Position numbers and translations under genes: made by a program
From: Patescibacteria group bacterium
GTDB lineage: Bacteria > Patescibacteriota > Microgenomatia > UBA10105 > UBA927
Assembly (NCBI GenBank): GCA_049322955.1
Contig: JBMOPU010000012.1
Span: 886,186 to 950,185 of the forward strand
Direction of reading: 5' to 3'
DNA: 64,000 bases
Shown: in pieces, positions 3,325-44,553 of the stretch
Layout of the letters: every line of letters starts with the position of its first letter
Numbering within the stretch: the first letter of the stretch is position 1
Notes under the pieces: model-generated
Told to the model about the DNA's origin: nothing
The model's database searches: none
What the model saw: only the letters and a program-made list of their open reading frames with translations

Positions 3325-3332
3325 ACAAGGAA

Positions 3333-4328: not shown

Positions 4329-4344
4329 AGACTATAAAAGTAGG

Positions 4345-6360: not shown

Positions 6361-6371
6361 AATTATTTAAG

Positions 6372-7424: not shown

Positions 7425-7433
7425 ACACTCCGC

Positions 7434-10823: not shown

Positions 10824-10827
10824 ATGG

Positions 10828-12441: not shown

Positions 12442-12464
12442 AGTATGTATCAGATTTACTGAGA

Positions 12465-13508: not shown

Positions 13509-14383
13509 TTCTTTTGTAATGCAACCATAATATTGGATGCCCAAAATTTGGAGGATATCTGTTTTTCATCAATATCTTCAATTATTTTTTCTAGCATTGA
13601 AATTCGCAGAAGTGATAAAAATGCCCCGAAAAGTTTTACAAGGTGTCCCGTGTAATATACCGCTTTAACTGCATATCTTTTTCCGAATAATGACACAATG
13701 TCTTCGAGTGAGTAATGACGGTAATGCCCCACTTTTCTATCAGAATACATGTAAATGGGAATGAACAACGGGAAGACATATCGGAAAGCAAGAGGGACAC
13801 CGACAATAACTATTCCAAATTTTTTTATGTATTCATTTAATTGAACTACTACCTTTTTATCATTTTGCAGGTGTTCTATAACATGCAGAAGAATTGTCAT
13901 TTGTACGCTTCTTTTTTTTAGCCGTAATTTTGTGATGTCTGAGGCTACAAACAGAATACGATTCTGTAATTTTTTTATCTTTGCGACTGCTCTCGCATGA
14001 AAAAGCCCTTCAATAGAAAGATCGCACGCGATGACCGTGTATCCTAACTCCGCAAGAGCAATGGAAACATATCCCTGACCACATGCCGCATCCAGAATTA
14101 TTGATTTTTTGTTCGTAGGCAGGAAAGGCTGTAACCGTCGAATATATCTATTCCGCCATTCAAATTGCGTATTTGCATAGTCATTTACATACTCTTTGTC
14201 ATAATAGTTTTTTTGATGTTCATTATGTGTGTCCTCAAACACCCTGTCATCCAGAAAATTTATCACGCCGTTGGTGACTGCATACCGCTTTTTGCAACGT
14301 CCACAAATGATTGCTTTTTTACCTTGCCCTGATAGGGCGCCGCCGCAAGACGGACAGCAAATTATTCTTAAAAGATTATTCAT
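13505..14383 (-). CDS. SAM-dependent methyltransferase with N-terminal Trm112-like zinc ribbon
   Basis: CPSCGG...CGRCKK ribbon, then ILDAACGQGYVSIALAELGYTVIACD (motif I) and a DVIEH-type motif II. Confidence 0.75.
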   Translation of the reverse strand: MNNLLRIICCPSCGGALSGQGKKAIICGRCKKRYAVTNGVINFLDDRVFEDTHNEHQKNYYDKEYVNDYANTQFEWRNRYIRRLQPFLPTNKKSIILDAACGQGYVSIALAELGYTVIACDLSIEGLFHARAVAKIKKLQNRILFVASDITKLRLKKRSVQMTILLHVIEHLQNDKKVVVQLNEYIKKFGIVIVGVPLAFRYVFPLFIPIYMYSDRKVGHYRHYSLEDIVSLFGKRYAVKAVYYTGHLVKLFGAFLSLLRISMLEKIIEDIDEKQISSKFWASNIMVALQKK

Positions 14384-15540
14384 AGTGCCTTCGCAAACTC
14401 ATACTCATATATTTTATATATATCGTTCTTTTCTGCATATAGTCTGCTCTGCGTACATATGTGTGTGTGCTTTTTTTTGTCTTTATAGAGATCTAAGACG
14501 CCCTTGGCAAATGAGCATGGGTCTCCCGGTACTACGATCCCTGTGCCGTATTTGATAACGCGTTTGGAGAAACTATAGCCCTTTGTCACAATGGTAGGTA
14601 TACCCGCAGCCGCATAAATTTGAATCTTCATAGGATCTGTGGTGGTAAGAAGTGAAGAGTCATCCTTCCTATAGGGCGCCAAACCGCAGAGGTATGAACC
14701 GAGTTTGGAAGCATACGTAAATATATCCTGATACCCATGTAATCGAACATAATTTTCCAGTGAAAATTTTTTTACTTTATTCAGTATGATTGCTTCTTCT
14801 GATCCTACTCCGATAATATCCAGTCTGAATGACGGCTCATATTTATGTATTTCTTTGAGTATGTCCGGTAATAGATCAGCCCCGTTCATGCGATTAAGCG
14901 TTCCTATGAAAACAAGTGTCGGCGTTTCTAACTTTTTATGCCTCCTGGGAAAAAGCGCCACCGGAACATTTGCGGGAATCACCCGTATGGGTTTTTGCTC
15001 CTTCATCCTTCTGCTTATTTGAATATCGTTCGATAATGCCCAATTTATATCACTGTTTGCATACGCAAAGCCGTCCAGCAAACGATACAAAACGTTCATT
15101 TTCGCTCCGCTAAAACGTTTTTTTGCAATACCGTGCGAATAAAAAATAACTCTTTTACATCCCCCGATACGACGGAAAAATATCGCTATGAGAGCAAGAA
15201 GAGAATTTTGTGCAATAACGAGGTCAAAAGATTGATGACGCATCCTGAATAACACCCACAGCCCCTGAAGGAAATGCAGGATATAGGTTAACGACGGGTG
15301 TCCGACGTATGTACGAATATTCTTCGTTGCTATCTTCTTGCCATATCTGTACTCATACACCTCGATATGCGTGAGTAACGGAATTTCAGGAAGGGGGAAT
15401 TTAATAGCTGCTACGTATTGTGTTTTATGATCATTCAAATAAAGAGTCAAAAAGTCTTGCATGGCAGTAGTGGCGTAATGGGACAGTAGGAGCACCCGCG
15501 AAGACCTGTATCTCTCTTTGTTGGTATCTTTTTCGTTCAT
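14380..15540 (-). CDS. glycosyltransferase family 4
   Basis: GT-B C-terminal region: VFIGTLNRMNGADLL ... RLDIIGVGSE ... RLHGYQD. A (TG)4 + T8 simple-sequence tract lies near the 3' end (14455..14478). Confidence 0.75.
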   Translation of the reverse strand: MNEKDTNKERYRSSRVLLLSHYATTAMQDFLTLYLNDHKTQYVAAIKFPLPEIPLLTHIEVYEYRYGKKIATKNIRTYVGHPSLTYILHFLQGLWVLFRMRHQSFDLVIAQNSLLALIAIFFRRIGGCKRVIFYSHGIAKKRFSGAKMNVLYRLLDGFAYANSDINWALSNDIQISRRMKEQKPIRVIPANVPVALFPRRHKKLETPTLVFIGTLNRMNGADLLPDILKEIHKYEPSFRLDIIGVGSEEAIILNKVKKFSLENYVRLHGYQDIFTYASKLGSYLCGLAPYRKDDSSLLTTTDPMKIQIYAAAGIPTIVTKGYSFSKRVIKYGTGIVVPGDPCSFAKGVLDLYKDKKKHTHICTQSRLYAEKNDIYKIYEYEFAKAL

Positions 15541-16481
15541 ACATTCTCACACATATGTTTTATTCCCTTGTCGATAGTATATTGCTCCTTAAAGGGTGTA
15601 AGCGTAAGAAATTGTTTGTTTGAATATTTCCGATGAACAGATTGGCTTTCTGGCGGTGAGTACCTTATTTTTGATTTTGAACCTGTAATATCCACAACTT
15701 TTTTGGCCAGTTCGTATAAATTTATCCGTTGTGATCCGATAATGTTCACCGGTTCACCCGTTGCGTGCTTCTCAATAAGAAGCGTTAGTGCCCGTGCAAG
15801 ATCGGTAACGAACATAAATGTTAATTCCTTGCTTTTTGGTGCCGTAATCTTTATCGGCTTATTGGCTTTGGCAAGATGTATGAATGTCGGGATAACTCGT
15901 CCTTTTGCTACATCGTCCCCGGGTCCATATACGTTGCCCGCTCTGGCAATTGCGATGCGAAGATTCTTATCGTGATAATACTTGCCTAAAATTTCTGTAT
16001 ATCTTTTTACCCATGCATACGCGCCGATATCTTCATCAAACCAATAGCCCCGATTAAAACGCTTATCCACCACACTTGATTTTGATATTGCATAGACTTC
16101 TACAGAGCTCATTAAGAGTAGCCGTGATACCCGGTTTATTTTGCATGCATCCAAAATATTCAACGCGATTCTCGTGTTCGTCTGCAAGATTTCATGTGTA
16201 TGCGCCTGCTTATACGCCGTCCCGCCATCTAAGCCTGCGAAATGAAACACAATATCGGTGTTTTTCAGGACGCGAACGGTATTTTCGCGATTATTTAAAT
16301 CAACGACGCAAACTCGTAGATTTTTTTTCCGTACGGCATTAGGTTTCTGTTTTGATCGATGAGACACTAGTGCCGTCACCCGGGCACCATGTTCAGACAA
16401 AAATCGTACAACATGACTTCCGATAAACCCTCCGGCTCCGGTCACGGCAACTTTTTTATTAATCCAAAAGGAGTCACTCAT
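15537..16481 (-). CDS. NAD-dependent epimerase/dehydratase family protein
   Basis: VAVTGAGGFIGSHVV Rossmann motif and YAWVK (YxxxK). 314 aa. Confidence 0.75.
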   Translation of the reverse strand: MSDSFWINKKVAVTGAGGFIGSHVVRFLSEHGARVTALVSHRSKQKPNAVRKKNLRVCVVDLNNRENTVRVLKNTDIVFHFAGLDGGTAYKQAHTHEILQTNTRIALNILDACKINRVSRLLLMSSVEVYAISKSSVVDKRFNRGYWFDEDIGAYAWVKRYTEILGKYYHDKNLRIAIARAGNVYGPGDDVAKGRVIPTFIHLAKANKPIKITAPKSKELTFMFVTDLARALTLLIEKHATGEPVNIIGSQRINLYELAKKVVDITGSKSKIRYSPPESQSVHRKYSNKQFLTLTPFKEQYTIDKGIKHMCENV

Positions 16482-17314
16482 GATTTTCGCAGTATTGCAG
16501 TAAGAATACCTAGCAATCCGGCTGTGTATTCGACTGTCCTCATAATAATAAAGGCGAGTGTATCAACGGGACGGTGGAGAAACAATCTCCAGTTACGGAT
16601 ATATGCCATACGTATGGGAAAGTAACTTTTGGTTGCCGCTTTTGGTCGCTTCGCAAGGTATAACAACGAATCTCTGCCGTACATATATCGTTTTCGAAAC
16701 AGTTTTCTTAGCGTAAGCGCCCCTTCATTATGACGAAGAATTTCAGTACTCCAGTAAGTGGCGAATCCCCCTTCTTGCAACGCTACCGCCAGATCCCAAT
16801 CATCGCCACCGCCACCCAGTGATGTATCAAGCCCCCCTAATCGTTTCCATACGCTGGCCTTCACAAAACGAGGCGCTTCGATAGTTTCGTCACCCCAGTA
16901 GCATTGCCGCTCTAAATTTTTTGCCCGTGCCCAAATACCTTCACCGAATGAATCCTCCGATACGATCACCGCGTCTGCCCCTTTTTTACACAGATCAACG
17001 CAATTTTTTATTACTTTTGGGGTCAACTCCATATCTGCATCAATGATATATATGAATTCACCCTTAGCTTTTTTCGCTCCGTAATTCCGTCGGTAAGGAG
17101 CATCAAAATATCCCCGGGGCACCTTTGGGTTATAGGTATATACATGTGCGCCATACTGCTTGGCTATTACCCTTGTGTCGTCGGTGGAGTTACCGTCAAC
17201 GAGTATGATTTCAATATCTTTGTGTGTCTGTGCCCTCACGCTTCGAAGGCAATTTTCTAAAAAAACGGCGGAATTTTTTGTGGGTATGATGACGGATACT
17301 TGCCCTTTTTTCAT
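16478..17314 (-). CDS. glycosyltransferase family 2
   Basis: VSVIIPTKNS ... IEIILVDGNSTDDT ... IIDADME. Confidence 0.8.
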   Translation of the reverse strand: MKKGQVSVIIPTKNSAVFLENCLRSVRAQTHKDIEIILVDGNSTDDTRVIAKQYGAHVYTYNPKVPRGYFDAPYRRNYGAKKAKGEFIYIIDADMELTPKVIKNCVDLCKKGADAVIVSEDSFGEGIWARAKNLERQCYWGDETIEAPRFVKASVWKRLGGLDTSLGGGGDDWDLAVALQEGGFATYWSTEILRHNEGALTLRKLFRKRYMYGRDSLLYLAKRPKAATKSYFPIRMAYIRNWRLFLHRPVDTLAFIIMRTVEYTAGLLGILTAILRKS

Positions 17315-18414
17315 AATATTTCGATAAACCGGTTATACGACACTTTCCATGTGTGCTCATCACTTCCGCCGATTGCGTTTCTTTCCATCCTTTTGCGCAA
17401 CGAGGCATTTCGTATGACCAGCATCATCGCGTCTGCAAGCTCACGGATGTCTGGAGTTGTCGAAAGCAATATTCCGCTACGAAAATCAGCAATAGAATCA
17501 CACAGACCGGTCACACGCGTACCTATACTCGGCGTTCCGCAGGCGGCGGCTTCCGTCACCACCATCCCCCATCCTTCCTTTACCGACGGAAGCAAAAGCG
17601 CCCACGCCTCCTGCATGAGCTTTACCTTCTGATCCTTGGGGTGCTTATCAAAAAACAGATGATCTTTGTTAACCAGAAAAACATTTTTTTGCAGTCCGTA
17701 CTCGTTAATCATTTCTTGGAGCCGTTGTTCCATCGGTCCGTAACCGACGATAGCAAGCTTCGCATCAGGGACTGATTTGACCACGATTCGCATGGCCTCG
17801 ACACACATGTCCGGCCGTTTCATGGCGGTAAGCCGCGCCACAAAAACAAAGAGCGGAGTCTTTGACTTCTTCCCCGGTTTATAGCGATCATGGTCAATCC
17901 CTATGGGAAACGTGCTGATATGGGGAAGCGGGATGCCGAACGAAGCAATATCCTTTTTGACGCTTTCCGAATAGCACACAAACCGCGTCGTTTTATAAGT
18001 GAAGTATTCGAGCGGTTCTAAAAGGTACGCGATATGCGAAATCACGGGCGGCAGTTCATAAAAAAACACTTCCTTGGCCAGTTGATTTACGTAGGCTATT
18101 CGTTTCTCCCTTGGCACATATAAGGGTGTTTGCCAGCAAATGGTGTTGACGCAATCGATCACTTTATCGGGTTTTTCGGCAAGCGAGCGATAATACCGAA
18201 ACGCTTCCCAATAGACCGTAAATCGGTTGCCGCGACGGATAATGCGGATGCCGTCAATCGTCTCTTCCTTTTTTCCGCCGTTGTAGGTTCGGGAAAACCA
18301 CGTCACGGTATGACCGTCACGCACCAACCGTTTGGAGAGTTCATAAAGGATAACTTCCGCTCCTCCGACATCGGGATTTTTTATATCTTTCCAGTTGAGG
18401 ATCAGGATATCCAT
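17311..18414 (-). CDS. glycosyltransferase family 4
   Basis: EX7E-type motif: LLPSVKEGWGMVVTEAAACGTPSIG. Confidence 0.8.
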   Translation of the reverse strand: MDILILNWKDIKNPDVGGAEVILYELSKRLVRDGHTVTWFSRTYNGGKKEETIDGIRIIRRGNRFTVYWEAFRYYRSLAEKPDKVIDCVNTICWQTPLYVPREKRIAYVNQLAKEVFFYELPPVISHIAYLLEPLEYFTYKTTRFVCYSESVKKDIASFGIPLPHISTFPIGIDHDRYKPGKKSKTPLFVFVARLTAMKRPDMCVEAMRIVVKSVPDAKLAIVGYGPMEQRLQEMINEYGLQKNVFLVNKDHLFFDKHPKDQKVKLMQEAWALLLPSVKEGWGMVVTEAAACGTPSIGTRVTGLCDSIADFRSGILLSTTPDIRELADAMMLVIRNASLRKRMERNAIGGSDEHTWKVSYNRFIEIL

Positions 18415-18426
18415 AGATAGGCATGA

Positions 18427-19209
18427 TTATACCGCTTTTTGCGCGCAGGCGATCAGCGTCGTGCCAAAGGGCAACGCGATCCGTGTAGTGAGATAAGTAT
18501 CTAGTCGCATGGAAAACAACAGCAATCGGTTAAGCGGAGCGGCGGGCATGCGAAGCACCCCCTCAAGCACCGCCATCGTGTCATCGGTATGCGCGGGTGA
18601 GATCAGCAGTTTTTTCACAAGAAAGTGCGGCAGATACTGAAAAAAACCGAGATATCCGACAAATCGTACCGTGTATCCGCTTTTTTCCAGCGCTTCGATA
18701 AGGGCGGCTTTGGTGTACCGTCGCTTATGCCCCGATATCGTGTCATATGCACTCCATAACTCCGACCGTGCGGGAACCGTCACAAACAACATCCCTCCGG
18801 GATTGAGCAAAGACCGACATCTCTCGAGCGCTTTTGTTGCATGGGCAATATGTTCAATAACGTCAAAGATACCGACTGCATCAAATTTTTTTGCGGGTTT
18901 AAAATCAAAGAGATCGCCGACAACAAACGTTGCGGAAGGCACGCGTTTTCTTGCATATCTGATGCCATCACCGTGCATATCCAGGCCGGTCACCCGAAAC
19001 CCCATCGCGGCAAGTTCACGAAGGACATATCCCGTACCGCATCCGACTTCAAGAAACCGTTTTCCCAGGGGTTTGGGAAAATATTTCGTGATAATTGACC
19101 GGATCGCATGGTTTCTGCCGCGAAACCAAAAATGCCGTTCTTCGCGGTCGACAAGAAGCGCATAGGCTTCTTTCGGGTAATCACTTGCGGGAGATTTTTT
19201 TGCCGTCAT
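18427..19209 (-). CDS. class I SAM-dependent methyltransferase
   Basis: FLEVGCGTGYVLRELAAMGFRVTGLD and FDVIEH. Confidence 0.8.
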   Translation of the reverse strand: MTAKKSPASDYPKEAYALLVDREERHFWFRGRNHAIRSIITKYFPKPLGKRFLEVGCGTGYVLRELAAMGFRVTGLDMHGDGIRYARKRVPSATFVVGDLFDFKPAKKFDAVGIFDVIEHIAHATKALERCRSLLNPGGMLFVTVPARSELWSAYDTISGHKRRYTKAALIEALEKSGYTVRFVGYLGFFQYLPHFLVKKLLISPAHTDDTMAVLEGVLRMPAAPLNRLLLFSMRLDTYLTTRIALPFGTTLIACAQKAV

Positions 19210-19221: not shown

Positions 19222-20247
19222 TCAGGTGAAGAGCGAGGCATTCTCCCGCACCCATTCATACAGTTTTGTTATGCCCTCAGTAACACCCGTTGTCGGTTCC
19301 CAACCGAATTCTTTTTTCGCTTTTCTTACGTCAGCAACAAATATTTTCTGATCACCGGGACGCCAGTCCTGCGGGCTGACGCGGATGGTTTTTTTAAATA
19401 ATTTTTCCAGCAGCGGACCGAATTCATGCCACACCGATAACGTATTTTTGGGACCGCCTCCGATATTATAGAGGCCGCCTTTTGTTTTTTTGCCTGCGGC
19501 AATCGCCATATCGTATGCGTGTATCAGATCATCAACGTACAGAAGGTCGCGCACCTGTTTCCCGTCGCCGTAAATGGTAAGTTTTTTCCCGATGGTGGTG
19601 GCGATGATAAACCACGCGACCCATCCCTGATCCTCTACGCCGAACTGTCGCGGTCCGTAAATACACGATTGACGGAACACCACGGTGTCCAATCCGTATA
19701 TCCTGCCGTAATCATGCACGTATTGATCGGCGGTTCCCTTCGAACAGCCGTACGGCGAATGAAAATCCAAGGGAGCGGATTCACTCACTCCGTGTGAAAG
19801 CTTTTCATACGCATACCGGCCGTTTTTTTCAACGACCGAAACATCTTCCATTCCCCCGTATACTTTATTGGTTGACGAATAAATAAGCTTGGCCCGGCTG
19901 GAACTTGCCCGCATCGCTTCAAGCAGGTTAAAGGTACCCAACGCGTTGATTTCAAAATCTTCCCGCGGGTCGAGTACCGATGTGGTCACGGCAACCTGCG
20001 CGGCCAGGTGCAACACGGCGTCGGCGTTTTTCAAAAAACCGACGAGCTTGGCCACGTCGGCGGGTTTCCGGAGATCTCCTTTGATAAAGGTGAGTTTGCC
20101 GCCCAAACGCTTAAGCCAGGCAAGATTTTTGTCGGTGTTTTTCCGCGAGAGATTATCAAAGACCACGACATCGGCTTTTTTGCCGAGGTAAAACGCTGCG
20201 GCATTACTGCCGATAAACCCCGCACCCCCGGTAATGACGATACGCAT
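19222..20247 (-). CDS. CDP-paratose 2-epimerase-like NAD-dependent epimerase (RfbE/Prt-like)
   Basis: MRIVITGGAGFIGSN, VVFDNLSRK, HLAAQVAVTTS, EDFEINALGTFNLLEA, IYSSTNKVYG, DFHSPYGCSKGTADQY (YxxxK), VVFRQSCIYGPRQFG, DQGWVAWF, GDGKQVRD. These blocks match Salmonella CDP-tyvelose epimerase as I recall it. Confidence 0.7.
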   Translation of the reverse strand: MRIVITGGAGFIGSNAAAFYLGKKADVVVFDNLSRKNTDKNLAWLKRLGGKLTFIKGDLRKPADVAKLVGFLKNADAVLHLAAQVAVTTSVLDPREDFEINALGTFNLLEAMRASSSRAKLIYSSTNKVYGGMEDVSVVEKNGRYAYEKLSHGVSESAPLDFHSPYGCSKGTADQYVHDYGRIYGLDTVVFRQSCIYGPRQFGVEDQGWVAWFIIATTIGKKLTIYGDGKQVRDLLYVDDLIHAYDMAIAAGKKTKGGLYNIGGGPKNTLSVWHEFGPLLEKLFKKTIRVSPQDWRPGDQKIFVADVRKAKKEFGWEPTTGVTEGITKLYEWVRENASLFT

Positions 20248-20259: not shown

Positions 20260-21051
20260 TTACGGGACAGATACTTTAAAATTCAGTTCCTCATCAAAGC
20301 GCCATTTGCGCTTGTTTAAGTTATCATAATACCGCAGAAAGCGTAACCGATAAAATACCGCGATCGTATCCCAGAGCATATTGAGGATTGTTTTCCACAC
20401 CCCGGTGGAAGTGATGCTGGAGGCTCCCGTAAAATCAAGCTCGACGGGCGCTTCGTAGATACGGGTGTACCCCAGGTATTTGGCGACGGCGAGTATTTCG
20501 ATATCGAACGCGAATTGTTTCACTACCAATCGCGGCAGTACATCCTCGAGCACCGTTCGCCGGTACAGCTTCATCCCTACCTGGGTATCCCGCACATTCA
20601 ATCCGAAAAGAAGCCGCACCAACTGCTGATATCCCCAGGAGAGAATTTTCCTCTCCAACGGATACATCACTTTGGAAACGGGATGCCGTTTGCTCCCGAC
20701 AATGATATCCGCGTTATACCATTTGAAATGCTCGAGCATCATGGAAAGCCCGAGCTCGCTTAAATCTCCTCCCGCATCGAGAAACCCGATCACGTCACCG
20801 TGCGACTTCCCCATACCGAAACGGACGGCATACCCTTTGCCATGGTTCGTTTTGTACCCGGTCACCGTAACTTTTGTCGAACGGACTTTTTTTGCCTCCT
20901 CAAAGCTTTTGTCATCCATCCCGTCTATTACCACGATTACTTCCGTCGGCACATGGAGCAACTCAAGCTCCGCCAGGATATTCTGCAACTGTTTGCGTAT
21001 GGTTTTTTCCTGATGATAGACGGGAATAATAAGACTTAACAGTTTCATAGG
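20260..21051 (-). CDS. glycosyltransferase family 2 (possible polyprenyl-phosphate sugar synthase)
   Basis: LSLIIPVYHQ ... VVIDGMDD ... GKGYA ... FLDAGGD. Start moved to MKLLSLII to abut the downstream gene. Confidence 0.7.
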   Translation of the reverse strand, partial: PMKLLSLIIPVYHQEKTIRKQLQNILAELELLHVPTEVIVVIDGMDDKSFEEAKKVRSTKVTVTGYKTNHGKGYAVRFGMGKSHGDVIGFLDAGGDLSELGLSMMLEHFKWYNADIIVGSKRHPVSKVMYPLERKILSWGYQQLVRLLFGLNVRDTQVGMKLYRRTVLEDVLPRLVVKQFAFDIEILAVAKYLGYTRIYEAPVELDFTGASSITSTGVWKTILNMLWDTIAVFYRLRFLRYYDNLNKRKWRFDEELNFKVSVP

Positions 21052-21052
21052 C

Positions 21053-22303
21053 TTATCGCTTCCGGCGATAGTATAGCAAAAGACCGATAAATAACCCGAC
21101 GGCAACCGTGATATTTGCGGTAATGATCGAAAAGATACTATCGTGGAATGCCACGATAGCGGCAATCTGGACAACCGACGCTCCCGCGACAAACACCCAT
21201 ACACCCGTCTTTCCATGCCCCAAGAGCGTCATAATCAACACGTAACACAGCGAGTAAAACGATAAAAATATTCCCATCCAACCCACATGCGGAGCCGCGG
21301 GATAATACGATGCGCCAAACAGTAGCCCCAAGGCGATATGAGGGAACAGAAAATATCCGGTGGTAATCCCAAAAGAAACGGTGCATACCGCGAGCAACGC
21401 CGCCATCACCAGATTTCGCGAGCCTGTATTTTGCTTGGTTCGCTCCGCCACAACCGGAAAAAGCACATATGAAACGCTGCTTGAGGCAAAGTAGACTATT
21501 TTCCCCATGACCGAAAGCGCCGCATAATAGCCCGCTTCAACGGGCGGAAGAAAATGTTTGGCAAGCAGGATATCCGTACTATAGAGCGACGTGATGCCGA
21601 GCATGGTGATAAGCGACGGTGCCGAATAGGAAACGAATTCTTTTTTGGAAATCCCGCTCGGTTTGGCGTTTGCCGAGTAGACAAAACGAAGCGGGAGAAA
21701 GTATGCACCGAAACCGACAAGTCCCGTCAAAAATCCCGCGATAACCGTTTCCACAACACCCATCGCCGCCCCTATAATGCCACCCAGTAACCTCAATACG
21801 GTCGTAACGTTGTTCATCACCATCGCGGCGGTAAAAAGCTGGAACCCCTGCAACAAGCTGGTCTGGACGACGGTCACGATCCATAACGCGGAGGTAAGAT
21901 ACATGAACAGGATGGAGACAGGATGTGAAATGTGCAAAAAATCAGCAAGTATCCCCATAAGCGGCAGGACTGCCGCGGTTCCCCCTATCGCGACGATCGT
22001 TAGCCATTTCATCGTTTCGAGGCCGAGATTTTTTGCCTTCCCTACCTCCTGTTTTGCACGAAATCCCGCGATATACTTGGTGAGCACCGTTTGGAGCACC
22101 AGTGACGGAACGTTCAACAGATAGGAAAACGAAAACAGCGAGGCAAGTTCTCCGTAGGAAACGGGTCCCAGCATTCTTCCCACCACCAGGTGATAGGCGT
22201 ACGCGCCGAGATTGGCGAGCGTCGAACCGATAAGGACGACAGCGCTTCCTCTTGCCAGGGGATGGGCGGCAATTCGCCGAAAGAAAGAAATAACCGTTTT
22301 CAT
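21053..22303 (-). CDS. Wzx-like polysaccharide flippase (MOP superfamily)
   Basis: About 12-14 TM helices in the Polysacc_synt arrangement. Start at MKTVISFF gives an ATGA overlap with the upstream gene. Confidence 0.7.
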   Translation of the reverse strand: MKTVISFFRRIAAHPLARGSAVVLIGSTLANLGAYAYHLVVGRMLGPVSYGELASLFSFSYLLNVPSLVLQTVLTKYIAGFRAKQEVGKAKNLGLETMKWLTIVAIGGTAAVLPLMGILADFLHISHPVSILFMYLTSALWIVTVVQTSLLQGFQLFTAAMVMNNVTTVLRLLGGIIGAAMGVVETVIAGFLTGLVGFGAYFLPLRFVYSANAKPSGISKKEFVSYSAPSLITMLGITSLYSTDILLAKHFLPPVEAGYYAALSVMGKIVYFASSSVSYVLFPVVAERTKQNTGSRNLVMAALLAVCTVSFGITTGYFLFPHIALGLLFGASYYPAAPHVGWMGIFLSFYSLCYVLIMTLLGHGKTGVWVFVAGASVVQIAAIVAFHDSIFSIITANITVAVGLFIGLLLYYRRKR

Positions 22304-22986
22304 GGGCGCCAGAAGCGGTAGCGAACGAGCGTAAGCAGGGCAATTACCCCGTCCCACCAGGTCAGCTTTTTCCCTTCTTCAAATTTTCTCCCGAAATAGG
22401 AAATCGGTACTTCATAAATCTGATGGCCGCTCCGCAAAAGTTTTGCAGTCACCTCCGGCTCAAAATCAAACCGCTTGGCGTTTATCGTAATGTTGGAGAG
22501 CGCGTCTTTCCGAAATGCCTTATAACCGGTTTCCATATCGGTGATATTGGTGTTGTAGAAAATGTTGGTGAGTAACGTGACAAACTTGTTGCCGAGTTCA
22601 TAGACAAACATGGTGGAAAGATGCGCGCCCAAAAATCGAGATCCGTAGACTACTTTGACGCGTTCGTTTTCAAACGGGGCAAGCAGTGTGGGATAGTCCG
22701 CCGGACTGTACTCGAGATCGGCATCTTGAATAAGGATGATGTCTCCGGTCGCTTCCCGTATTCCCCGGGAAACGGCGGATCCTTTTCCCCCGTTTTTCGG
22801 CATGACGATAAGCCGGATTTTTTTCTGCCAATGCTTGAGCAGTTGCGGTGTTCCGTCGACGGATCCGTCGTCCACGACGATGACTTCTTTTGTCCATCCC
22901 GGCACCGTTTGGGCAAACACGCGGGTAAGCACCGACTCAATCGTCGCCGCTTCGTTATAGGTGGGAATAATCACGGAAAGTTTTTT
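22300..22986 (-). CDS. polyprenyl-phosphate glycosyltransferase (GT2; Dpm1/ArnC/GtrB-like)
   Basis: LSVIIPTYNE, EVIVVDDGSVDGT, PKNGGKGSAVSRGIREATGDIILIQDADLEYSP, ETGYKAF. Confidence 0.8.
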   Translation of the reverse strand, partial: KKLSVIIPTYNEAATIESVLTRVFAQTVPGWTKEVIVVDDGSVDGTPQLLKHWQKKIRLIVMPKNGGKGSAVSRGIREATGDIILIQDADLEYSPADYPTLLAPFENERVKVVYGSRFLGAHLSTMFVYELGNKFVTLLTNIFYNTNITDMETGYKAFRKDALSNITINAKRFDFEPEVTAKLLRSGHQIYEVPISYFGRKFEEGKKLTWWDGVIALLTLVRYRFWRP

Positions 22987-22993
22987 CATACGA

Positions 22994-24052
22994 TCAGGAA
23001 AGCGACGCATAGACCGACGCCGTTTCTTTTGCCACCCGTTTCCAGGTGAATTGTTTTGCCCATTCCATTTCGTTTTTTACCAGCTGTTTGCGTTCCTTGG
23101 GCGGAAGCATAACCGACTGTCGTATGGCACGCGCCAACTCCCCGGTATTGCCCGGATCGGCACTGAGCGCGGGACCCGATATTTCGGGGATACTCCCCCG
23201 GTCACTTGCCACCACCGGCACCCCGCACATCATCGCCTCTATCACCGGGAATCCGAACCCTTCATACCATGAAGGAAGCACTACGGATCGTGCACCGGAA
23301 TAGAGCGCGGACATATCCTCATCCCGGATAAATCCGGGGCGAATCACATGTTTCCCTATCCCGAGCGACGTAATAAGCTGCAGGATATCACGGGTTTCCC
23401 GCAGTTCCGTATTGGAAAACGCGCTGCCTGCCAACACTAATGTTGTGTTTCTGCTTCGGGAAAGTTTTGCCCTGGTCAGCTTCCACGCGGCAAGAAGTCC
23501 CGTAACGTTTTTGTTCCAGTTCACGTCCCCGACATACAGCACGTATTCCTCCGGCAGATGATATCGCTGTCGCATGGCACGAATCCTCTGCTCGTCGGTG
23601 ACCCGCTTATAGGACGGCGAGGGGGCAAGGGGCACTACATGGATTTTTTCTTCCTGTTTGCCCGTCAATTTCGCGATATCTTTTTTGCTTGATCGGGAAT
23701 CGGTCACAATCGCCGCGGCTCCCATAAGCGATAATCGCTGTATTTGCCATTTTACCCTGCCGCGAATCCCGGGCGGAAATTTATCCGGAAATAGCAGCGG
23801 AATCATGTCGTGGACGGTTACCACCGTGGGATAGTGCTTAAAAAACGGCAGGGTCAGAAAAAAAGGGTCAAAAAACGGATAATGCACGACATCCGTCTTT
23901 TTGAGGATATCCTCAACCCGGGTAAAAAAGGAATACGTGTGCCCTTTTTCGTATTTTAGCAGCGCGTCAATGAGGTTTTTGGTATAGACACCCGTCCCCC
24001 GCATCCGGTGTTCGGTCGAGAGCGGCAACGTATTTATCGCGATATTCATAAT
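22994..24052 (-). CDS. glycosyltransferase family 4
   Basis: VLPSWYEGFGFPVIEAMMCGVPVVAS. Start trimmed to MNIAINTL. Confidence 0.8.
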   Translation of the reverse strand: MMNIAINTLPLSTEHRMRGTGVYTKNLIDALLKYEKGHTYSFFTRVEDILKKTDVVHYPFFDPFFLTLPFFKHYPTVVTVHDMIPLLFPDKFPPGIRGRVKWQIQRLSLMGAAAIVTDSRSSKKDIAKLTGKQEEKIHVVPLAPSPSYKRVTDEQRIRAMRQRYHLPEEYVLYVGDVNWNKNVTGLLAAWKLTRAKLSRSRNTTLVLAGSAFSNTELRETRDILQLITSLGIGKHVIRPGFIRDEDMSALYSGARSVVLPSWYEGFGFPVIEAMMCGVPVVASDRGSIPEISGPALSADPGNTGELARAIRQSVMLPPKERKQLVKNEMEWAKQFTWKRVAKETASVYASLS

Positions 24053-25587
24053 TGCCTCTTGAGTATAAACGATACGAATGCGACAGACAACGAAAGAACG
24101 CCGATAAAAACGGACAGCCGCTGCCACCATGTCTCATGCAGTGCTATCTCGCCTTCCCGTACGCCGGAAGGAATCGTAAATGACGCAAGACCGCGTCCGT
24201 CGGGTTCACTGGGTATTGTTTTTTCTCCCGTGATAAATACCCATCCCGGATAGTGCGCGACGGGAGCGGTAAGCGTCCCGCTTGCGGTGGCGGTAAGGGA
24301 TATCGCATAACGGGTCGGTGCCGTTTTTTCCGCGGAGACGGTTCCCGATGACAGAGAAAACGGCGTGGTCGCAAGCGACTTGGGATCGCCGGTTATCCAT
24401 CGGGTCTGAAACGCATTCCCGAGCGACGAGGTGCCGCGGGACAATTGTTCATGCGCAAAATACTGTGCATCCGTCCGCGGCTGATAGATAACCGGATGAA
24501 AATACCGCCAGGTAAATGCAAATGCGCACACCACGATCAGAACGCTGACGACGTTTTTTCGCGCAACCGCGGCAGCGAGTATCGGGGTCGCTATGACGAT
24601 AACCGCAAGGAGCCGCCACGGATACTGGATGAGCGAAAGCGGCGGGATCATTTGCCATACAAACACAGAGACCGGCAACATGAAAAAAACGGCGGCAACA
24701 CCGAGCAGCCGATAGAAGAGGAGTTCTTTGCGAAGGTGATTTTCTTTCCGGGAAACAAAGAGACCTGCGATAAAAATCACCATCGGCATAATCCCGATCT
24801 GGTAGGACATTTCGGTAGCGCCTCCCGTTTGTCCGCGGTAGCCGCTTCCCCAGGATGGGAGCAACAACTGGTCTAACCGGGGAAAATAATCAAACACATT
24901 CACGTTACTGAGCCCGCTAATGAACTGCCGTTCATAGAGCGCGGGTATCCAAAACACACTCGACATACCCACACCCAGGAGTATGGCAAAAAGCCCTTGC
25001 CGGCAAAACAAAAAAGCGTACAGAAAAAGTACCGGCACAAATAGCATCGCCATAATGTTATGACTGACGATAAGAAGCGCCACACCGGCGGACGCCATAC
25101 CGTATCGTTTTTTCGTAAGCGCAAAGAGTGATGCAAATATGAAGGCGATCGCCCATATCTCGCCAAGGGAACCGCGGATATACATATCAAGAAACCAGTA
25201 CGGTACAAAAGCCCCTGCCAGCGCCCCGATCGCGGCACGGAATGTACCGAATTTTTCCTTGAGCCAGAGGTATGAAAAGAGCACGGCGACAATATAACCC
25301 GTTGCGGTAACTAATTTGACGCTATCGACAAATGAAAATCCGAATACATGAAACAATGCGCCTACCAGGTTGGGAAACGGATATTGAAACGTAAACAGCG
25401 GGATCCCCAACCCATAATTTAAATCCGGAGCCCATCGGGGAAATAACGTGCCGCCGGAAAGCATCGTAAAATACTGCCAGAACCGTATAATGTGATATTC
25501 ACCGTCATGGGTCGGAATAAATCCATTCCCGAACAACGGTGACGCGGCAAAAAGTACCGGAATAAGGACAAGGATAAACGGTATCAT
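24046..25587 (-). CDS. YfhO-related polytopic membrane glycosyltransferase-like protein (HD...RW paralog family, member 1 of 5)
   Basis: N-terminal PTHDGEYHIIR...FPRWAPDLNYGLGIPLFTFQYP, mid FVPYWFLDMYIRGSLGE, C-terminal YPGWVFITGE...IPSGV then a TM anchor. Start trimmed to MIPFILVL, which overlaps the upstream stop as ATGA. Confidence 0.6.
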   Translation of the reverse strand: MIPFILVLIPVLFAASPLFGNGFIPTHDGEYHIIRFWQYFTMLSGGTLFPRWAPDLNYGLGIPLFTFQYPFPNLVGALFHVFGFSFVDSVKLVTATGYIVAVLFSYLWLKEKFGTFRAAIGALAGAFVPYWFLDMYIRGSLGEIWAIAFIFASLFALTKKRYGMASAGVALLIVSHNIMAMLFVPVLFLYAFLFCRQGLFAILLGVGMSSVFWIPALYERQFISGLSNVNVFDYFPRLDQLLLPSWGSGYRGQTGGATEMSYQIGIMPMVIFIAGLFVSRKENHLRKELLFYRLLGVAAVFFMLPVSVFVWQMIPPLSLIQYPWRLLAVIVIATPILAAAVARKNVVSVLIVVCAFAFTWRYFHPVIYQPRTDAQYFAHEQLSRGTSSLGNAFQTRWITGDPKSLATTPFSLSSGTVSAEKTAPTRYAISLTATASGTLTAPVAHYPGWVFITGEKTIPSEPDGRGLASFTIPSGVREGEIALHETWWQRLSVFIGVLSLSVAFVSFILKRQL

Positions 25588-32816: not shown

Positions 32817-32821
32817 GCGTA

Positions 32822-34450: not shown

Positions 34451-34459
34451 ACTCAGTAG

Positions 34460-37346: not shown

Positions 37347-37381
37347 TGTACTAAATCAACTTATGCTTGACCATTGAGGGA

Positions 37382-44552: not shown

Positions 44553-44553
44553 T

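What the first reader, a model, noticed from the sequence alone, without database searches (positions are those of the whole stretch)
19222..20247. CDP-paratose 2-epimerase-like gene without the rest of a 3,6-dideoxyhexose pathway in the window
Seen in sequence: strong block-wise similarity to the RfbE/Prt-type (CDP-tyvelose epimerase) subfamily: VVFDNLSRK, HLAAQVAVTTS, FEINALGT, SSTNKVYG, DFHSPYGCSKGTADQY, DQGWVAWF, GDGKQVRD.

Inference: no nucleotidylyltransferase, 4,6-dehydratase or 3-dehydrase genes are present in the 64 kb. Either the upstream pathway is encoded elsewhere or this enzyme acts on a different NDP-sugar. Together with the GME-like gene and two more epimerase/reductase genes (2500..3324, 15537..16481), this points to an unusual nucleotide-sugar pool.
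Basis: partly seen in the sequence, partly recalled or inferred. Interest (0 to 1): 0.5.

Follow-up and report, generated by a model that had tools for sequence, protein, structure and literature searches.

The report
Tyvelose-epimerase-like sugar epimerase, uncharacterised sister subfamily
This gene from a candidate-phyla-radiation bacterium encodes a real sugar-nucleotide epimerase that resembles the Salmonella tyvelose epimerase but belongs to an unstudied sister branch with an altered substrate pocket and no dideoxy-sugar pathway nearby, so it most likely reshapes an ordinary activated sugar (probably glucose to mannose) for the surrounding cell-surface glycan genes.

Summary
Window 19222..20247 (-) is an intact 341-aa extended SDR containing all seven quoted motifs. 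Its best solved relatives are CDP-tyvelose 2-epimerases (9RL0 E=3e-103, 1ORR E=2e-95); the next hit, RmlB, is 8.5e-38. An AlphaFold model superposes on 1ORR at TM 0.94. No nucleotidylyltransferase, CDP-glucose dehydratase, E1 dehydrase or paratose synthase occurs in any frame of the 64 kb.

However, it is not an ortholog of the classical enzyme. A bootstrapped tree puts StTyvE, TaTyvE and relatives in a 100%-supported clade that excludes it. Six of seven classical loci, including those of both "promiscuous" characterised enzymes, carry ddhA-prt-ddhB-ddhC beside tyv; 0 of 37 non-classical loci do. Catalytic residues (Thr-Asn-Lys, Tyr-x3-Lys, Gln) are kept. Pocket positions switch: cytosine-capping Tyr203→Glu, sugar-4-OH Ser193→Cys, RxSDQ→RxGDQ.

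In CPR genomes the gene sits in a conserved block: GT4, Dol-P-Man-synthase-like GT2, Wzx-like flippase, GT2, epimerase, methyltransferase, GT4. A catalytically intact GDP-mannose 3,5-epimerase usually lies nearby.

Most likely it is an NAD-dependent NDP-hexose 2-epimerase using a housekeeping sugar nucleotide. NDP-glucose/mannose is favoured but unproven.

The parts
19222..20247 (-). Non-classical TyvE-like NAD-dependent NDP-hexose epimerase (341 aa). GxxGxxG at residues 7-13, Asp31, Thr126-Asn127-Lys128, Tyr166/Lys170, Gln207. Subfamily markers: Val87, Cys195, Glu205, Arg296-Pro-Gly-Asp-Gln.
20260..21216 (-). GT2 glycosyltransferase immediately upstream (12-nt gap). The true start is probably Met57 (gene 20260..21048, 262 aa, as called on the source contigs). 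Weak matches to polyprenyl-phosphate sugar synthases (PpgS, ArnC). Orthologous in all six CPR loci.
   Evidence: no PDB hit
21053..22357 (-). Wzx-like flippase. It has no Pfam hit itself, but its orthologs (308-917 bits) hit Polysacc_synt/Polysacc_synt_3.
22300..23010 (-). GT2 of the polyprenyl-phosphate hexose synthase type. Best solved relative is dolichol-phosphate mannose synthase 5mlz (E=4e-21), then ArnC and GtrB. NCBIfam AglJ 116 bits, below cut-off.
22994..24130 (-). GT4 glycosyltransferase at the head of the conserved block.
18427..19209 (-). SAM-dependent methyltransferase (Methyltransf_23) directly downstream of the epimerase (12-nt gap). An ortholog is present here in L004 and L007 (259-345 bits) and absent at this position in L005, L093 and L094.
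17311..18414 (-). GT4 glycosyltransferase, the most widely conserved partner. It follows the epimerase in all CPR loci, and a GT4 also directly follows TyvE-like genes in Chloroflexi and Alphaproteobacteria. The donor sugar cannot be inferred (weak BshA/MshA similarity).
16478..17314 (-). GT2 glycosyltransferase, overlapping the GT4 by 4 nt (same operon).
15537..16481 (-). Extended SDR of unknown specificity (314 aa). Weak LegB/GME similarity and no equivalog. Not a CDP-glucose dehydratase: 67 bits against a cut-off of 278, and DdhB seeds give at most 30 bits.
3333..4328 (-). GDP-mannose 3,5-epimerase homolog (331 aa) with the catalytic Cys, Tyr-x3-Lys and Lys conserved. Orthologs (633-693 bits) lie within 10 kb of the TyvE-like gene in four of the five other CPR loci; in the window it lies about 15 kb away.
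2500..3324 (-). Short SDR (274 aa) that always follows the GME homolog in CPR loci. Function unknown.

Best explanation
The gene encodes an NAD+-dependent extended-SDR sugar-nucleotide epimerase. It belongs to a large, biochemically uncharacterised sister subfamily of CDP-tyvelose 2-epimerase.

Shown here: it has the TyvE fold and the full TyvE catalytic set (Thr126-Asn127-Lys128, Tyr166, Lys170, Gln207). It lacks the Asp/Glu pair of 4,6-dehydratases. It lies outside the classical tyvelose clade. It has subfamily-specific replacements in both loops that close over the nucleotide-sugar. It is never found next to 3,6-dideoxyhexose genes. It sits in a tight, conserved CPR operon of glycosyltransferases and a flippase.

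Inferred: like TyvE, it oxidises C-2 of an NDP-hexose with tightly bound NAD+, lets the 2-keto intermediate rotate, and reduces it from the other face. Its substrate is a housekeeping NDP-sugar rather than a dedicated CDP-dideoxy sugar. The most probable reaction is NDP-glucose <-> NDP-mannose. The product would feed the adjacent GT4/GT2 enzymes, including a Dol-P-Man-synthase-like GT2 that could charge polyprenyl phosphate for the many GT-C transferases of the island. [quoted passage not shown]

Approximate sub-confidences: not a 3,6-dideoxyhexose enzyme, 0.9; epimerase rather than dehydratase, 0.85; C-2 regiochemistry, 0.6; Glc/Man pair, 0.35-0.4.
For: Family and fold:
- PDB phmmer gives 9rl0 3.4e-103 and 1orr 1.7e-95, against RmlB 8.5e-38.
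- The AF2 model has pLDDT 93.4. Foldseek top hit is 1orr, TM 0.94-0.95 and rmsd 1.5 A, against about 0.82 for GalE/RmlB.
- TNK, YxxxK and Gln205-equivalent are conserved in all TyvE-like sequences, whereas RmlB has TDE. Asn125 is essential and Gln205 contributes in TaTyvE (PMC13098431).

Not classical:
- The classical clade {1orr, 9rl0, L035, L036, L039, L045} has 100/100 bootstrap support and excludes the window protein. The CPR clade also has 100/100.
- DdhA/DdhB/DdhC (and Prt in five) at 259-1101 bits flank tyv in 6 of 7 classical loci, including TaTyvE and Persephonella TyvE. They flank 0 of 37 non-classical loci.
- Signature: Tyr203->Glu, Ser193->Cys and RxSDQ->RxGDQ in 119 of 119 window-side homologs, against Tyr in 113/117 and Ser in 116/117 TaTyvE-side homologs. 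Tyr203/Asp204 cap the cytosine (PMC13098431). Ser193 bonds the sugar 4-OH in docking (PMC7851689).

Context:
- Orthologous block GT2b-Wzx-GT2-TyvE-(MT)-GT4 in 6 of 6 CPR loci, with GME + SDR274 in 5 of 6.
- 12-nt or overlapping gene junctions.
- A TyvE-GT2 fusion protein, P0130.
- GT2b best matches Dol-P-Man synthase.
- Mannose-type GT-C families in the island or its orthologs: PMT/PMT_2, GT87, MptA_B, Mannosyl_trans2.
- The GME catalytic residues are intact.

Precedent: TyvE enzymes convert CDP/UDP/dTDP/GDP/ADP-Glc to the mannose form in vitro (PMC7851689), and GDP-Glc to GDP-Man (PMC12188384).
Against: - No member of this subfamily has been assayed, so regiochemistry and substrate are extrapolated from about 50% identical enzymes.
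- The in-vitro Glc/Man activity of classical TyvEs is slow (about 1 per min), GDP-Glc is about 100-fold worse than CDP-Glc for TaTyvE, and YpTyvE does not use CDP-Glc at all (PMC7851689, PMC13098431).
- The pocket replacements (Cys195, Glu205) could equally mean a different sugar, not just a different nucleotide.
- The conserved GT4 partner gives no donor clue. The window's own GT-C ORFs give only generic or no Pfam hits. PMT_2 also covers ArnT-like non-mannose transferases.
- GME co-occurrence is restricted to CPR and is missing within 10 kb in L005 and the P0076 locus.
- The rest of the genome could not be searched, so a conventional ManA/ManB/ManC route, or even ddh genes elsewhere, cannot be excluded.
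- The tree is neighbour-joining on a truncated sample of loci. Family monophyly has 78% support, and deeper relations among the non-classical groups are unresolved (41-47%).
Confidence: 0.55

Rival explanations
1. It is a 2-epimerase of the same subfamily, but its natural substrate is another 2-hydroxy NDP-sugar. Candidates are an NDP-pentose (UDP-xylose <-> UDP-lyxose) or an NDP-6-deoxyhexose (quinovose <-> D-rhamnose type), rather than glucose/mannose.
For: TaTyvE is about 5-fold faster on CDP-6-deoxy-Glc than on CDP-Glc (PMC7851689). It is fastest on CDP-lyxose, about 20 per min (PMC13098431). A UDP-glucuronate decarboxylase (UDP-xylose synthase, E=1.7e-105) lies about 8 kb beyond the window's low-coordinate end on the same contig. 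The Ser193->Cys change at a sugar-contacting position suggests the sugar pocket differs from that of classical enzymes.
Against: There is no 4,6-dehydratase ortholog in the window to make a 6-deoxy substrate. The UXS gene is about 28 kb from the epimerase, and no UXS was identified within 10 kb of the epimerase in the other CPR loci (none was specifically searched for). Lyxose and D-rhamnose glycans are rare. GME and the mannose-type GT families fit mannose better.
Confidence: 0.25
2. It has the TyvE-like scaffold but different chemistry: epimerisation at another carbon (C-3 or C-4), or net oxidation to a keto-sugar that the neighbouring SDRs or methyltransferase then process.
For: No member of the subfamily has been characterised. 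Two pocket loops differ from classical TyvE. Extended SDRs with about 50% identity can differ in regiochemistry. Several SDRs of unknown function lie in the operon.
Against: Every residue implicated in C-2 chemistry and substrate positioning in TaTyvE is conserved: Thr124, Asn125, Lys126, Tyr164, Lys168, Gln205, Val83 (PMC13098431). The TyvE-specific beta-hairpin is present. The ribose, phosphate and base-stacking residues Asp204, Gln235, Arg237, Arg299, Trp207, Trp210 and Phe211 are conserved.
Confidence: 0.1
3. It is a genuine CDP-paratose/CDP-tyvelose 2-epimerase, and the ddhA-D/prt genes are simply encoded elsewhere in the genome.
For: The best solved relatives are CDP-tyvelose 2-epimerases. 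JGI annotates homologs as 'CDP-paratose 2-epimerase'. The rest of the genome could not be inspected.
Against: The protein is outside the 100%-supported classical clade. In that clade the ddh genes are adjacent in 6 of 7 loci, while none of 37 non-classical loci across many phyla has them within 10 kb. About 74 kb of this contig (the window plus about 9.3 kb beyond its low-coordinate end) lacks them. The cytosine-capping Tyr and the Ser193 position are replaced. CPR genomes are about 1 Mb, and the E1/E3 Fe-S/PMP system would be an unusual scattered investment.
Confidence: 0.05
4. It is an NDP-hexose 4,6-dehydratase, as NCBI names many homologs ('GDP-mannose 4,6-dehydratase').
For: The top Pfam hit is GDP_Man_Dehyd and the top NCBIfam hit is dTDP-glucose 4,6-dehydratase, though at 187 bits against a cut-off of 365. 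NCBI names.
Against: It has Thr-Asn-Lys where dehydratases have Thr-Asp-Glu, so it lacks the acid/base pair needed for water elimination. Identity to RmlB is 33% and to Gmd 22%, against 50-52% to the TyvEs. The same NCBI name is attached to TaTyvE, which is experimentally a 2-epimerase (PMC7851689).
Confidence: 0.02

Closest known systems
CDP-tyvelose (CDP-paratose) 2-epimerase, classical clade: Salmonella Typhi TyvE/RfbE (PDB 1ORR), Y. pseudotuberculosis TyvE, T. atlanticus TaTyvE/TaCPa2E (PDB 9RL0), Persephonella PmTyvE
   Same: - Extended-SDR fold; the model superposes on 1ORR at TM 0.94-0.95 and rmsd 1.5 A.
- 50-52% identity over the full length with no indels in the catalytic core.
- GxxGxxG/Asp31 NAD site; Thr-Asn-Lys; Tyr-x3-Lys; the Gln205 equivalent; the TyvE beta-hairpin.
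- The ribose, phosphate and base-stacking residues Asp204, Gln235, Arg237, Arg299, Trp207, Trp210 and Phe211 are all conserved.
- It probably uses the same transient 2-keto mechanism.
   Different: - It lies outside the 100%-bootstrap classical clade.
- It has no ddhA/prt/ddhB/ddhC neighbours, whereas St-like, Ta and Pm loci have them.
- Pocket replacements: Met85->Val, His191->Gln, Ser193->Cys, Gly198->Pro, Tyr203->Glu, and Glu300-Ser301->Pro-Gly next to Arg299.
- It is embedded in a GT/flippase operon of a CPR bacterium.
- Its substrate is unknown.
dTDP-glucose 4,6-dehydratase RmlB (for example 1G1A) and GDP-mannose 4,6-dehydratase
   Same: The same superfamily and domain organisation, and the next-best sequence and fold matches. 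Homologs are often annotated with these names.
   Different: About 33% (RmlB) and 22% (Gmd) identity. It has TNK instead of the TDE catalytic segment, and VAV instead of the ESHVDRS segment. It forms a separate clade in the tree. RmlB loci carry rmlA/C/D neighbours, which are absent here.
The engineered 'sucrose synthase -> GDP-Glc -> TyvE -> GDP-Man -> GME/GMD' cascades proposed or built in vitro (PMC8787198, PMC12188384)
   Same: The window places a TyvE-like epimerase and a GDP-mannose 3,5-epimerase in one operon. These are the enzyme pair that the engineered routes combine to reach GDP-L-galactose or GDP-fucose from a glucose nucleotide.
   Different: Here the pairing is natural but only inferred to be a pathway. 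The nucleotide used by the epimerase is unknown, no GDP-glucose source was identified, and the two genes are about 15 kb apart within the operon.

Membership tests
Extended SDR, NDP-sugar-modifying (NS-SDR / Pfam Epimerase PF01370, GDP_Man_Dehyd PF16363) | N-terminal Rossmann fold with GxxGxxG, and a C-terminal substrate domain of about 100 aa | tested here: met
   GGAGFIG at residues 7-13. PF01370 1.8e-52 and PF16363 2.2e-55 over the full length. AF2 model pLDDT 93.4 with alternating beta-alpha topology.
Extended SDR, NDP-sugar-modifying (NS-SDR / Pfam Epimerase PF01370, GDP_Man_Dehyd PF16363) | Catalytic Ser/Thr ... Tyr-x3-Lys triad | tested here: met
   Thr126, Tyr166 and Lys170 are invariant in alignments A1 and A2.
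TyvE-like family in the broad sense (SDR1E / CEP1 2-epimerase branch) | Closest to solved TyvE structures by sequence and by fold, clearly separated from GalE/RmlB | tested here: met
   348 and 323 bits to 9rl0 and 1orr, against 133 bits to RmlB. TM 0.94 against about 0.82. Family monophyly 78/100 in NJ bootstraps.
TyvE-like family in the broad sense (SDR1E / CEP1 2-epimerase branch) | TNK segment (Thr124-Asn125-Lys126), V-A-x segment (83-85), Gln205, and the beta-hairpin 132-150 | tested here: met
   STNK, QVAV and DQGW are present. There is no gap across the hairpin region in the HMMER alignment, and the model has strands at 138-141 and 144-147. The third residue of the V-A-x segment is Val, not Met.
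Classical CDP-tyvelose 2-epimerase orthogroup (EC 5.1.3.10; RfbE/Tyv) | Phylogenetic placement with StTyvE/YpTyvE/TaTyvE | tested here: not met
   The classical clade is recovered in 100 of 100 bootstraps without the window protein. The window groups with CPR sequences (100/100).
Classical CDP-tyvelose 2-epimerase orthogroup (EC 5.1.3.10; RfbE/Tyv) | Genomic linkage to ddhA (Glc-1-P cytidylyltransferase), ddhB (CDP-Glc 4,6-dehydratase), ddhC/ddhD (E1/E3) and prt | tested here: not met
   None is present in the 64-kb window in any frame, nor in the 9.3 kb beyond it. 0 of 6 CPR loci have them, against 6 of 7 classical loci. The rest of the genome was not searchable.
Classical CDP-tyvelose 2-epimerase orthogroup (EC 5.1.3.10; RfbE/Tyv) | CDP/sugar pocket residues identical to StTyvE (Ser193, Tyr203, Asp204, Gln205, Trp207, Trp210, Phe211, Gln235, Arg237, Arg299) | tested here: not met
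   Eight of ten are conserved, but Ser193->Cys195 and Tyr203->Glu205. In addition RESDQ->RPGDQ next to Arg299. The split is subfamily-wide: 119/119 against 113-116/117.
Classical CDP-tyvelose 2-epimerase orthogroup (EC 5.1.3.10; RfbE/Tyv) | Catalyses CDP-paratose <-> CDP-tyvelose | not testable with these tools
   Requires an enzyme assay. The CDP-paratose substrate is itself hard to obtain (PMC7851689).
NDP-hexose 4,6-dehydratases (RmlB / Gmd / DdhB) | Acid/base pair directly after the catalytic Thr (Thr-Asp-Glu in RmlB), and the NCBIfam equivalog score | tested here: not met
   The window has Thr-Asn-Lys, while all 10 RmlB sequences aligned have Thr-Asp-Glu. TIGR01181 187 bits against a cut-off of 365. 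TIGR02622 80 bits against 278. TIGR01472 47 bits against 415.
UDP-glucose 4-epimerase GalE | NCBIfam equivalog score and clade membership | tested here: not met
   TIGR01179 162 bits against a cut-off of 262. PDB GalE hits are at most 125 bits. No GalE sequence was included in the tree.

The most novel reading that the evidence does not exclude
This subfamily is nature's own NDP-glucose 2-epimerase. In genome-reduced CPR bacteria (and in Chloroflexi, Acidobacteria and others) it would make an activated mannose directly from an activated glucose, bypassing phosphomannose isomerase, phosphomannomutase and ManC. The invariant Glu that replaces the cytosine-capping Tyr would re-tune the enzyme toward a purine (GDP) or uridine nucleotide. 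The product would feed both a polyprenyl-phosphate-mannose/GT-C surface glycosylation system and a GDP-mannose 3,5-epimerase that makes L-galactose. Rapp et al. (PMC7851689) describe C-2 epimerisation of glucose nucleotides as 'not known to nature', so this would be its first physiological example.
Probability: 0.25. Interest if true: 0.65.

Novelty: new variant of a known kind. Interest (0 to 1): 0.42.

Why it matters
1. Thousands of database proteins in this branch are named 'CDP-paratose 2-epimerase' (JGI) or 'GDP-mannose 4,6-dehydratase' (NCBI). The evidence here says both names are probably wrong for the non-classical subfamily. A three-position signature separates the two groups: Ser193/Tyr203/RxSDQ (classical) against Cys/Glu/RxGDQ (non-classical).

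2. Both enzymes used as 'promiscuous TyvE-like' biocatalysts, TaTyvE and the Persephonella enzyme, sit in complete tyvelose operons. Their glucose/mannose activity is therefore probably a side reaction. The untested sister subfamily is a more promising place to look for an efficient natural NDP-glucose/mannose 2-epimerase, which glycoengineers want for GDP-mannose, GDP-fucose and L-galactose cascades.

3. The conserved block, together with GME, UXS and more than a dozen GT-C transferases, gives a concrete and testable picture of how CPR bacteria build a complex surface glycan from a minimal metabolism.

Tried and rejected
- **NCBIfam naming:** no equivalog passes its cut-off for the target or for the other SDRs.
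- **Relaxed Pfam scan (E up to 0.05):** ten unannotated island ORFs gave only sub-threshold YfhO/YukC hits and no mannose-specific family in the window itself.
- **PDB search, upstream GT2 (20260..21048):** no hit.
- **PDB search, conserved GT4 (17311..18414):** only weak BshA/MshA similarity, so the donor cannot be inferred.
- **Rosetta-stone test:** the GT2 domain fused to TyvE in P0130 is not specifically related to either neighbouring window GT2. Its best CPR matches, at 42-54 bits, are to a different GT2 two genes downstream. The fusion therefore supports only a generic epimerase-GT2 link.
- **Walking beyond the window:** the high-coordinate end failed because the exact protein is not on record. 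The low-coordinate end added about 9.3 kb without any nucleotidylyltransferase.
- **Whole-genome search:** looking for ddh, manA/B/C, galU or rmlA genes across the source genome is not possible with these tools.
- **Literature searches:** none found for CPR plus paratose epimerase, or for Patescibacteria plus mannosyltransferase plus nucleotide sugar.
- **Dehydratase reading:** considered and rejected (TNK versus TDE).
- **Chance or pseudogene reading:** considered and rejected. The ORF is intact, and the protein sequence is identical on three contigs, one of which is only about 91% identical in DNA.
Full report
**1. The observation**

Window 19222..20247 on the minus strand is an intact ATG-initiated ORF of 341 aa. 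Pfam places it in the extended-SDR epimerase/dehydratase families over its full length (PF16363 2.2e-55, PF01370 1.8e-52). No NCBIfam equivalog model reaches its cut-off; the best is dTDP-glucose dehydratase at 187 bits against a cut-off of 365.

Against all PDB chains, the two best matches are the only two solved CDP-tyvelose 2-epimerases: 9RL0 from Thermodesulfatator atlanticus (E=3.4e-103) and 1ORR from Salmonella Typhi (E=1.7e-95). There is then a gap of about 60 orders of magnitude to RmlB at 8.5e-38. An AlphaFold2 model (pLDDT 93.4, pTM 0.92) superposes on 1ORR with TM 0.94-0.95 and rmsd 1.5 A, against TM of about 0.82 for GalE and RmlB. The similarity is real and specific.

**2. The absence claim**

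I annotated all 55 main-frame ORFs of at least 150 aa with Pfam; ORF 63345..63905 was scanned against NCBIfam only and matched no family. The whole 64 kb is one glycosylation island, nearly all on the minus strand with 4-nt overlaps or 12-nt gaps between genes. It contains:
- about twelve GT2 and five GT4 genes;
- four SAM methyltransferases;
- a Wzx flippase (57929..59380);
- GT-C-type membrane transferases: seven PMT_2, three YfhO, two PTPS_related and one sub-threshold GT87-like;
- a DUF5667 protein (26727..27260), a family I recall as common in CPR genomes (memory, not tested);
- four SDRs.

No NTP_transferase, DegT (E1) or ferredoxin-reductase (E3) domain appears. A six-frame search of all stop-to-stop ORFs of at least 50 aa with E. 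coli RmlA, GalF, ManC, ManB and RmlC, plus a DegT seed, found nothing. Authentic DdhA, Prt, DdhB and DdhC taken from the T. atlanticus and Persephonella operons also found no orthologs; the best DdhB-type score in the window is 51 bits, and that hit is the epimerase itself. About 9.3 kb beyond the window's low-coordinate end adds an acetyltransferase, two GDSL esterases, a UDP-glucuronate decarboxylase (E=1.7e-105) and another SDR, but still no nucleotidylyltransferase.

- 3333..4328 is a GDP-mannose 3,5-epimerase homolog (2c59, E=1.6e-101). Its catalytic Cys, Tyr-x3-Lys and Lys align to Arabidopsis Cys145, Tyr174/Lys178 and Lys217.
- 2500..3324 and 15537..16481 are SDRs without a confident assignment.

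**3. Source organism**

The closest homologs (up to 92% identity) are unnamed metagenomic proteins. Named ones are from Patescibacteria, Woesebacteria and Gottesmanbacteria. The window is 100% identical to a Logan contig. An NCBI MAG (GCA_964449585.1) encodes the identical protein on a contig about 91% identical in DNA. The organism is therefore a CPR bacterium, probably a Microgenomates-type lineage.

**4. It is not a classical tyvelose epimerase**

A neighbour-joining tree with 100 bootstraps recovers a classical clade in 100 of 100 replicates: StTyvE, TaTyvE, and loci from Methylobacter, Pseudanabaena, Competibacteraceae and a single-cell genome. The window protein is excluded from that clade and groups with CPR sequences (100/100). 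Next to the CPR group lie Anaerolineae and assorted other phyla, and a further clade from Acidobacteria and Alphaproteobacteria. Relations among these non-classical groups are poorly resolved (41-47%), and family monophyly has 78% support. Identity to TaTyvE is 52%, to StTyvE 50% and to RmlB 33%.

*Genomic context.* Context separates the groups cleanly.
- In 6 of 7 classical loci the epimerase is flanked by orthologs of DdhA (280-1055 bits), DdhB (264-860), DdhC/E1 (514-1101) and, in five of the six, Prt (259-661). The seventh locus has only 2.9 kb of upstream sequence.
- This includes the loci of the two enzymes used in the literature as 'promiscuous TyvE-like' catalysts. TaTyvE (P0271, T. 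atlanticus) and a Persephonella enzyme 84% identical to it both sit in operons ordered NTP_transferase, SDR, SDR, DegT, TyvE.
- None of 37 non-classical loci has any of these genes within 10 kb (14 GH-fusion clade, 17 non-CPR, 6 CPR including the window).

*Pocket residues.* Residue comparison gives a matching signature.
- Every TyvE-like sequence keeps Thr-Asn-Lys, Tyr-x3-Lys and the Gln205 equivalent. In TaTyvE, Asn125 is essential and Gln205 contributes (PMC13098431). RmlB dehydratases instead have Thr-Asp-Glu.
- Also conserved in the window protein are the residues reported to hold the ribose (Asp204, Gln235), the phosphates (Arg237, Arg299) and the cytidine (Trp207, Trp210, Phe211) (PMC7851689).
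- The two loops that close over the bound nucleotide-sugar differ. 'FRHSSMYGGRQFATYDQGW' becomes 'FRQSCIYGPRQFGVEDQGW', and 'RESDQ' becomes 'RPGDQ'.
- Tyr203, which with Asp204 closes over the cytosine in the 9RL0 ternary complex (PMC13098431), is Glu205 here.
- Ser193, which hydrogen-bonds the sugar 4-OH in docking (PMC7851689), is Cys195 here.
- Among the 120 closest homologs of the window protein, 119 match the pattern and all 119 have Glu, Cys and R-x-Gly-DQ. Among the 120 closest homologs of TaTyvE, 113 of 117 have Tyr and 116 of 117 have Ser, and the commonest top-loop variants are R-x-Ser-DQ.

One caveat applies. The 2021 homology-model paper held that Tyr203 contacts the base through main-chain atoms and is interchangeable. 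The functional meaning of the Glu is therefore an inference.

**5. Conserved neighbourhood**

In six CPR loci whose epimerases are 72-100% identical, the following genes are orthologous and in the same order (bits against the window proteins):
1. GT4.
2. GT2 of about 235 aa. The window copy is 22300..23010; its best solved relative is dolichol-phosphate mannose synthase 5mlz at 4e-21, followed by ArnC and GtrB.
3. Wzx-like flippase of about 420 aa. The window copy is 21053..22357; its orthologs hit Polysacc_synt_3.
4. GT2 of about 265 aa.
5. The epimerase.
6. An optional SAM methyltransferase.
7. GT4.

The GME homolog plus the 274-aa SDR lie downstream in five of the six loci: 5-9 kb in the other loci and about 15 kb in the window. 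One further locus, seen only as a gene table, lacks them within 10 kb.

Outside CPR, a GT4 gene directly follows the epimerase in several Anaerolineae-type loci and in an alphaproteobacterial locus. A 693-aa representative protein, P0130, fuses a window-type epimerase to a GT2.

Families annotated as polyprenyl-phosphate-mannose dependent recur in the island or its orthologs:
- PMT/PMT_2 in the window, plus a sub-threshold GT87 match;
- MptA_B for the L004 and L094 orthologs of window 25584..26723 (53% identical to L004);
- Mannosyl_trans2 in L093.

No locus has a nucleotidylyltransferase. This suggests the substrate comes from the housekeeping sugar-nucleotide pool rather than from a dedicated activation step.

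**6. Most likely mechanism**

Shown: fold, cofactor site, catalytic residues, non-dehydratase character, non-classical clade, operon context.

Inferred: the enzyme works as TyvE does. Tightly bound NAD+ abstracts hydride from C-2 while Tyr166 takes the 2-OH proton. The 2-keto intermediate rotates in the pocket, and hydride returns to the opposite face.

The best candidate reaction is NDP-glucose <-> NDP-mannose. There is a direct in-vitro precedent in the sister clade for all five common nucleotides (PMC7851689), and for GDP-glucose -> GDP-mannose specifically (PMC12188384). The product would serve the adjacent GT4/GT2 enzymes. Through the Dol-P-Man-synthase-like GT2 and the flippase it would also supply the many GT-C transferases. 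If the nucleotide is GDP, it would supply the GME in the same operon. That last pairing mirrors an engineered cascade proposed by Beerens et al. (PMC8787198).

The weak points are these:
- nobody has assayed this subfamily;
- the Glc/Man activity of classical enzymes is slow, and GDP-Glc is their poorest or near-poorest substrate;
- YpTyvE does not take CDP-Glc at all (PMC13098431);
- the GT4 gives no donor clue;
- the rest of the genome is unseen.

**7. Rivals**

In decreasing likelihood:
- The same chemistry on another 2-hydroxy NDP-sugar. UDP-xylose/lyxose is one candidate, given the nearby UXS and TaTyvE's high rate on CDP-lyxose. NDP-6-deoxyglucose is another.
- A different regiochemistry or a net oxidation on the same scaffold.
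- A true CDP-paratose epimerase with ddh genes elsewhere. This is disfavoured by clade, context and signature.
- A 4,6-dehydratase as named by NCBI, excluded by TNK versus TDE.

**8. Novelty and interest**

The protein is a member of a large branch; there are 1,444 50%-identity representatives at E<=1e-30 for the wider family. The branch is abundant in public data but uncharacterised, and it carries two probably incorrect database names. I found no paper describing it or these CPR islands.

I class it as a new variant of a known kind: a known fold and a probable known mechanism, but a distinct orthogroup, pocket and biological role. For a specialist the useful points are:
- the diagnostic three-position signature;
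- the recognition that TaTyvE and PmTyvE are true tyvelose-operon enzymes;
- the hypothesis that the sister subfamily is the physiological NDP-glucose 2-epimerase, a reaction that has been called 'not known to nature'.

That is moderately interesting but not startling, and it remains untested. Interest: 0.42.

Noticed in passing
window 3333..4328 and 2500..3324 (-); orthologs in L004 15601..17437, L007 18435..20239, L093 15453..17292, L094 18584..20422: A plant-type GDP-mannose 3,5-epimerase homolog (E=1.6e-101 to Arabidopsis GME, catalytic Cys/Tyr/Lys/Lys intact) is always followed by a 274-aa SDR with almost no similarity to characterised enzymes. This is a conserved CPR gene pair, suggesting L-galactose/L-gulose or a further-modified L-sugar in the glycan.
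   Followed up: partly
window about 4000..14000 (GC 0.35-0.41, against about 0.50 elsewhere); ORFs 4345..6360, 6372..7424, 7434..9668, 9649..10275, 10233..10823, 10828..12441: A low-GC stretch of large ORFs with no Pfam family. The roughly 91%-identical NCBI MAG strain (L001) loses homology to the window exactly below position 14028 and carries different genes there (a pyruvyl transferase and other GT2s). This points to a strain-variable glycan cassette inside the island.
   Followed up: partly
window 31188..38893 (-) and 38937..46206 (+), plus 49776..55471 and 60088..63326: An extraordinary density of GT-C-type membrane transferases: seven PMT_2/PMT paralogs (several in tandem), three YfhO, two PTPS_related and one weak (below cut-off) GT87 hit. 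There is a strand switch at about 38.9 kb. For a genome of about 1 Mb this is a very large investment in periplasmic/surface glycosylation.
   Followed up: no
L095 19062..20018 (about 8.4-9.4 kb beyond window position 1 on the same contig): A UDP-glucuronate decarboxylase (UDP-xylose synthase) homolog, E=1.7e-105 to human UXS1, followed by another SDR. Preceding it are a hexapeptide acetyltransferase and two GDSL esterase-like proteins (963 and 347 aa) and a 1154-aa protein with no family.
   Followed up: partly
P0142, P0148 and about 50 other representatives; loci L024, L025, L026, L041 (fused) and L028, L032, L034, L037, L042 (separate gene): In Acidobacteria and Alphaproteobacteria the non-classical TyvE-like domain is fused to, or encoded next to, a domain of about 300 aa with no Pfam match. 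Its motifs ('WITETGFSTW', 'YWYS..DL') look like a clan GH-A TIM-barrel glycosidase. The neighbours include another SDR, a B12-binding radical-SAM protein and a GT4. This is an uncharacterised conserved cluster.
   Followed up: partly
P0121 (766 aa) and P0123 (1089 aa), representatives 58-61% identical to the window protein: TyvE-like epimerases interrupted by large insertions. In P0121 the insertion is intein-like (Intein_splicing match just below its Pfam cut-off, 35.3 against 35.8 bits). P0123 is split into several matched stretches but has no intein match.
   Followed up: no
L091 (T. atlanticus ATXH01000036) 402..5975 and L092 (Persephonella) 5800..11023: TaTyvE, and a Persephonella enzyme inferred to be PmTyvE, are the enzymes the literature presents as 'promiscuous TyvE-like'. 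Both sit in complete ddhA-prt-ddhB-ddhC-tyv operons. The papers read here do not discuss genomic context. Their CDP-glucose activity is therefore probably a side activity of genuine tyvelose-pathway enzymes. In T. atlanticus the E1 gene is called as a fusion with a PemK toxin domain (546 aa), possibly a gene-calling artefact.
   Followed up: partly
names: NCBI annotates many members of both subfamilies, including the experimentally characterised TaTyvE itself, as 'GDP-mannose 4,6-dehydratase'. JGI annotates the non-classical CPR proteins as 'CDP-paratose 2-epimerase'. Both names look wrong for the window's subfamily.
   Followed up: yes
window 20260..21216 (-): The mechanical ORF (318 aa) has a 56-aa N-terminal extension overlapping the upstream flippase gene. 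Gene calls on the source contigs start at Met57 (262 aa, 20260..21048), and the Pfam GT2 match begins at residue 61.
   Followed up: yes
L005 12960..18616 (CPR locus of P0030): This CPR lineage lacks the GME/274-aa pair within 10 kb. In the equivalent position it has a GDP-fucose-synthase-like SDR (209 bits to E. coli Fcl) and two further SDRs. This suggests lineage-specific swapping of the sugar-modifying module downstream of a constant epimerase-GT core.
   Followed up: no
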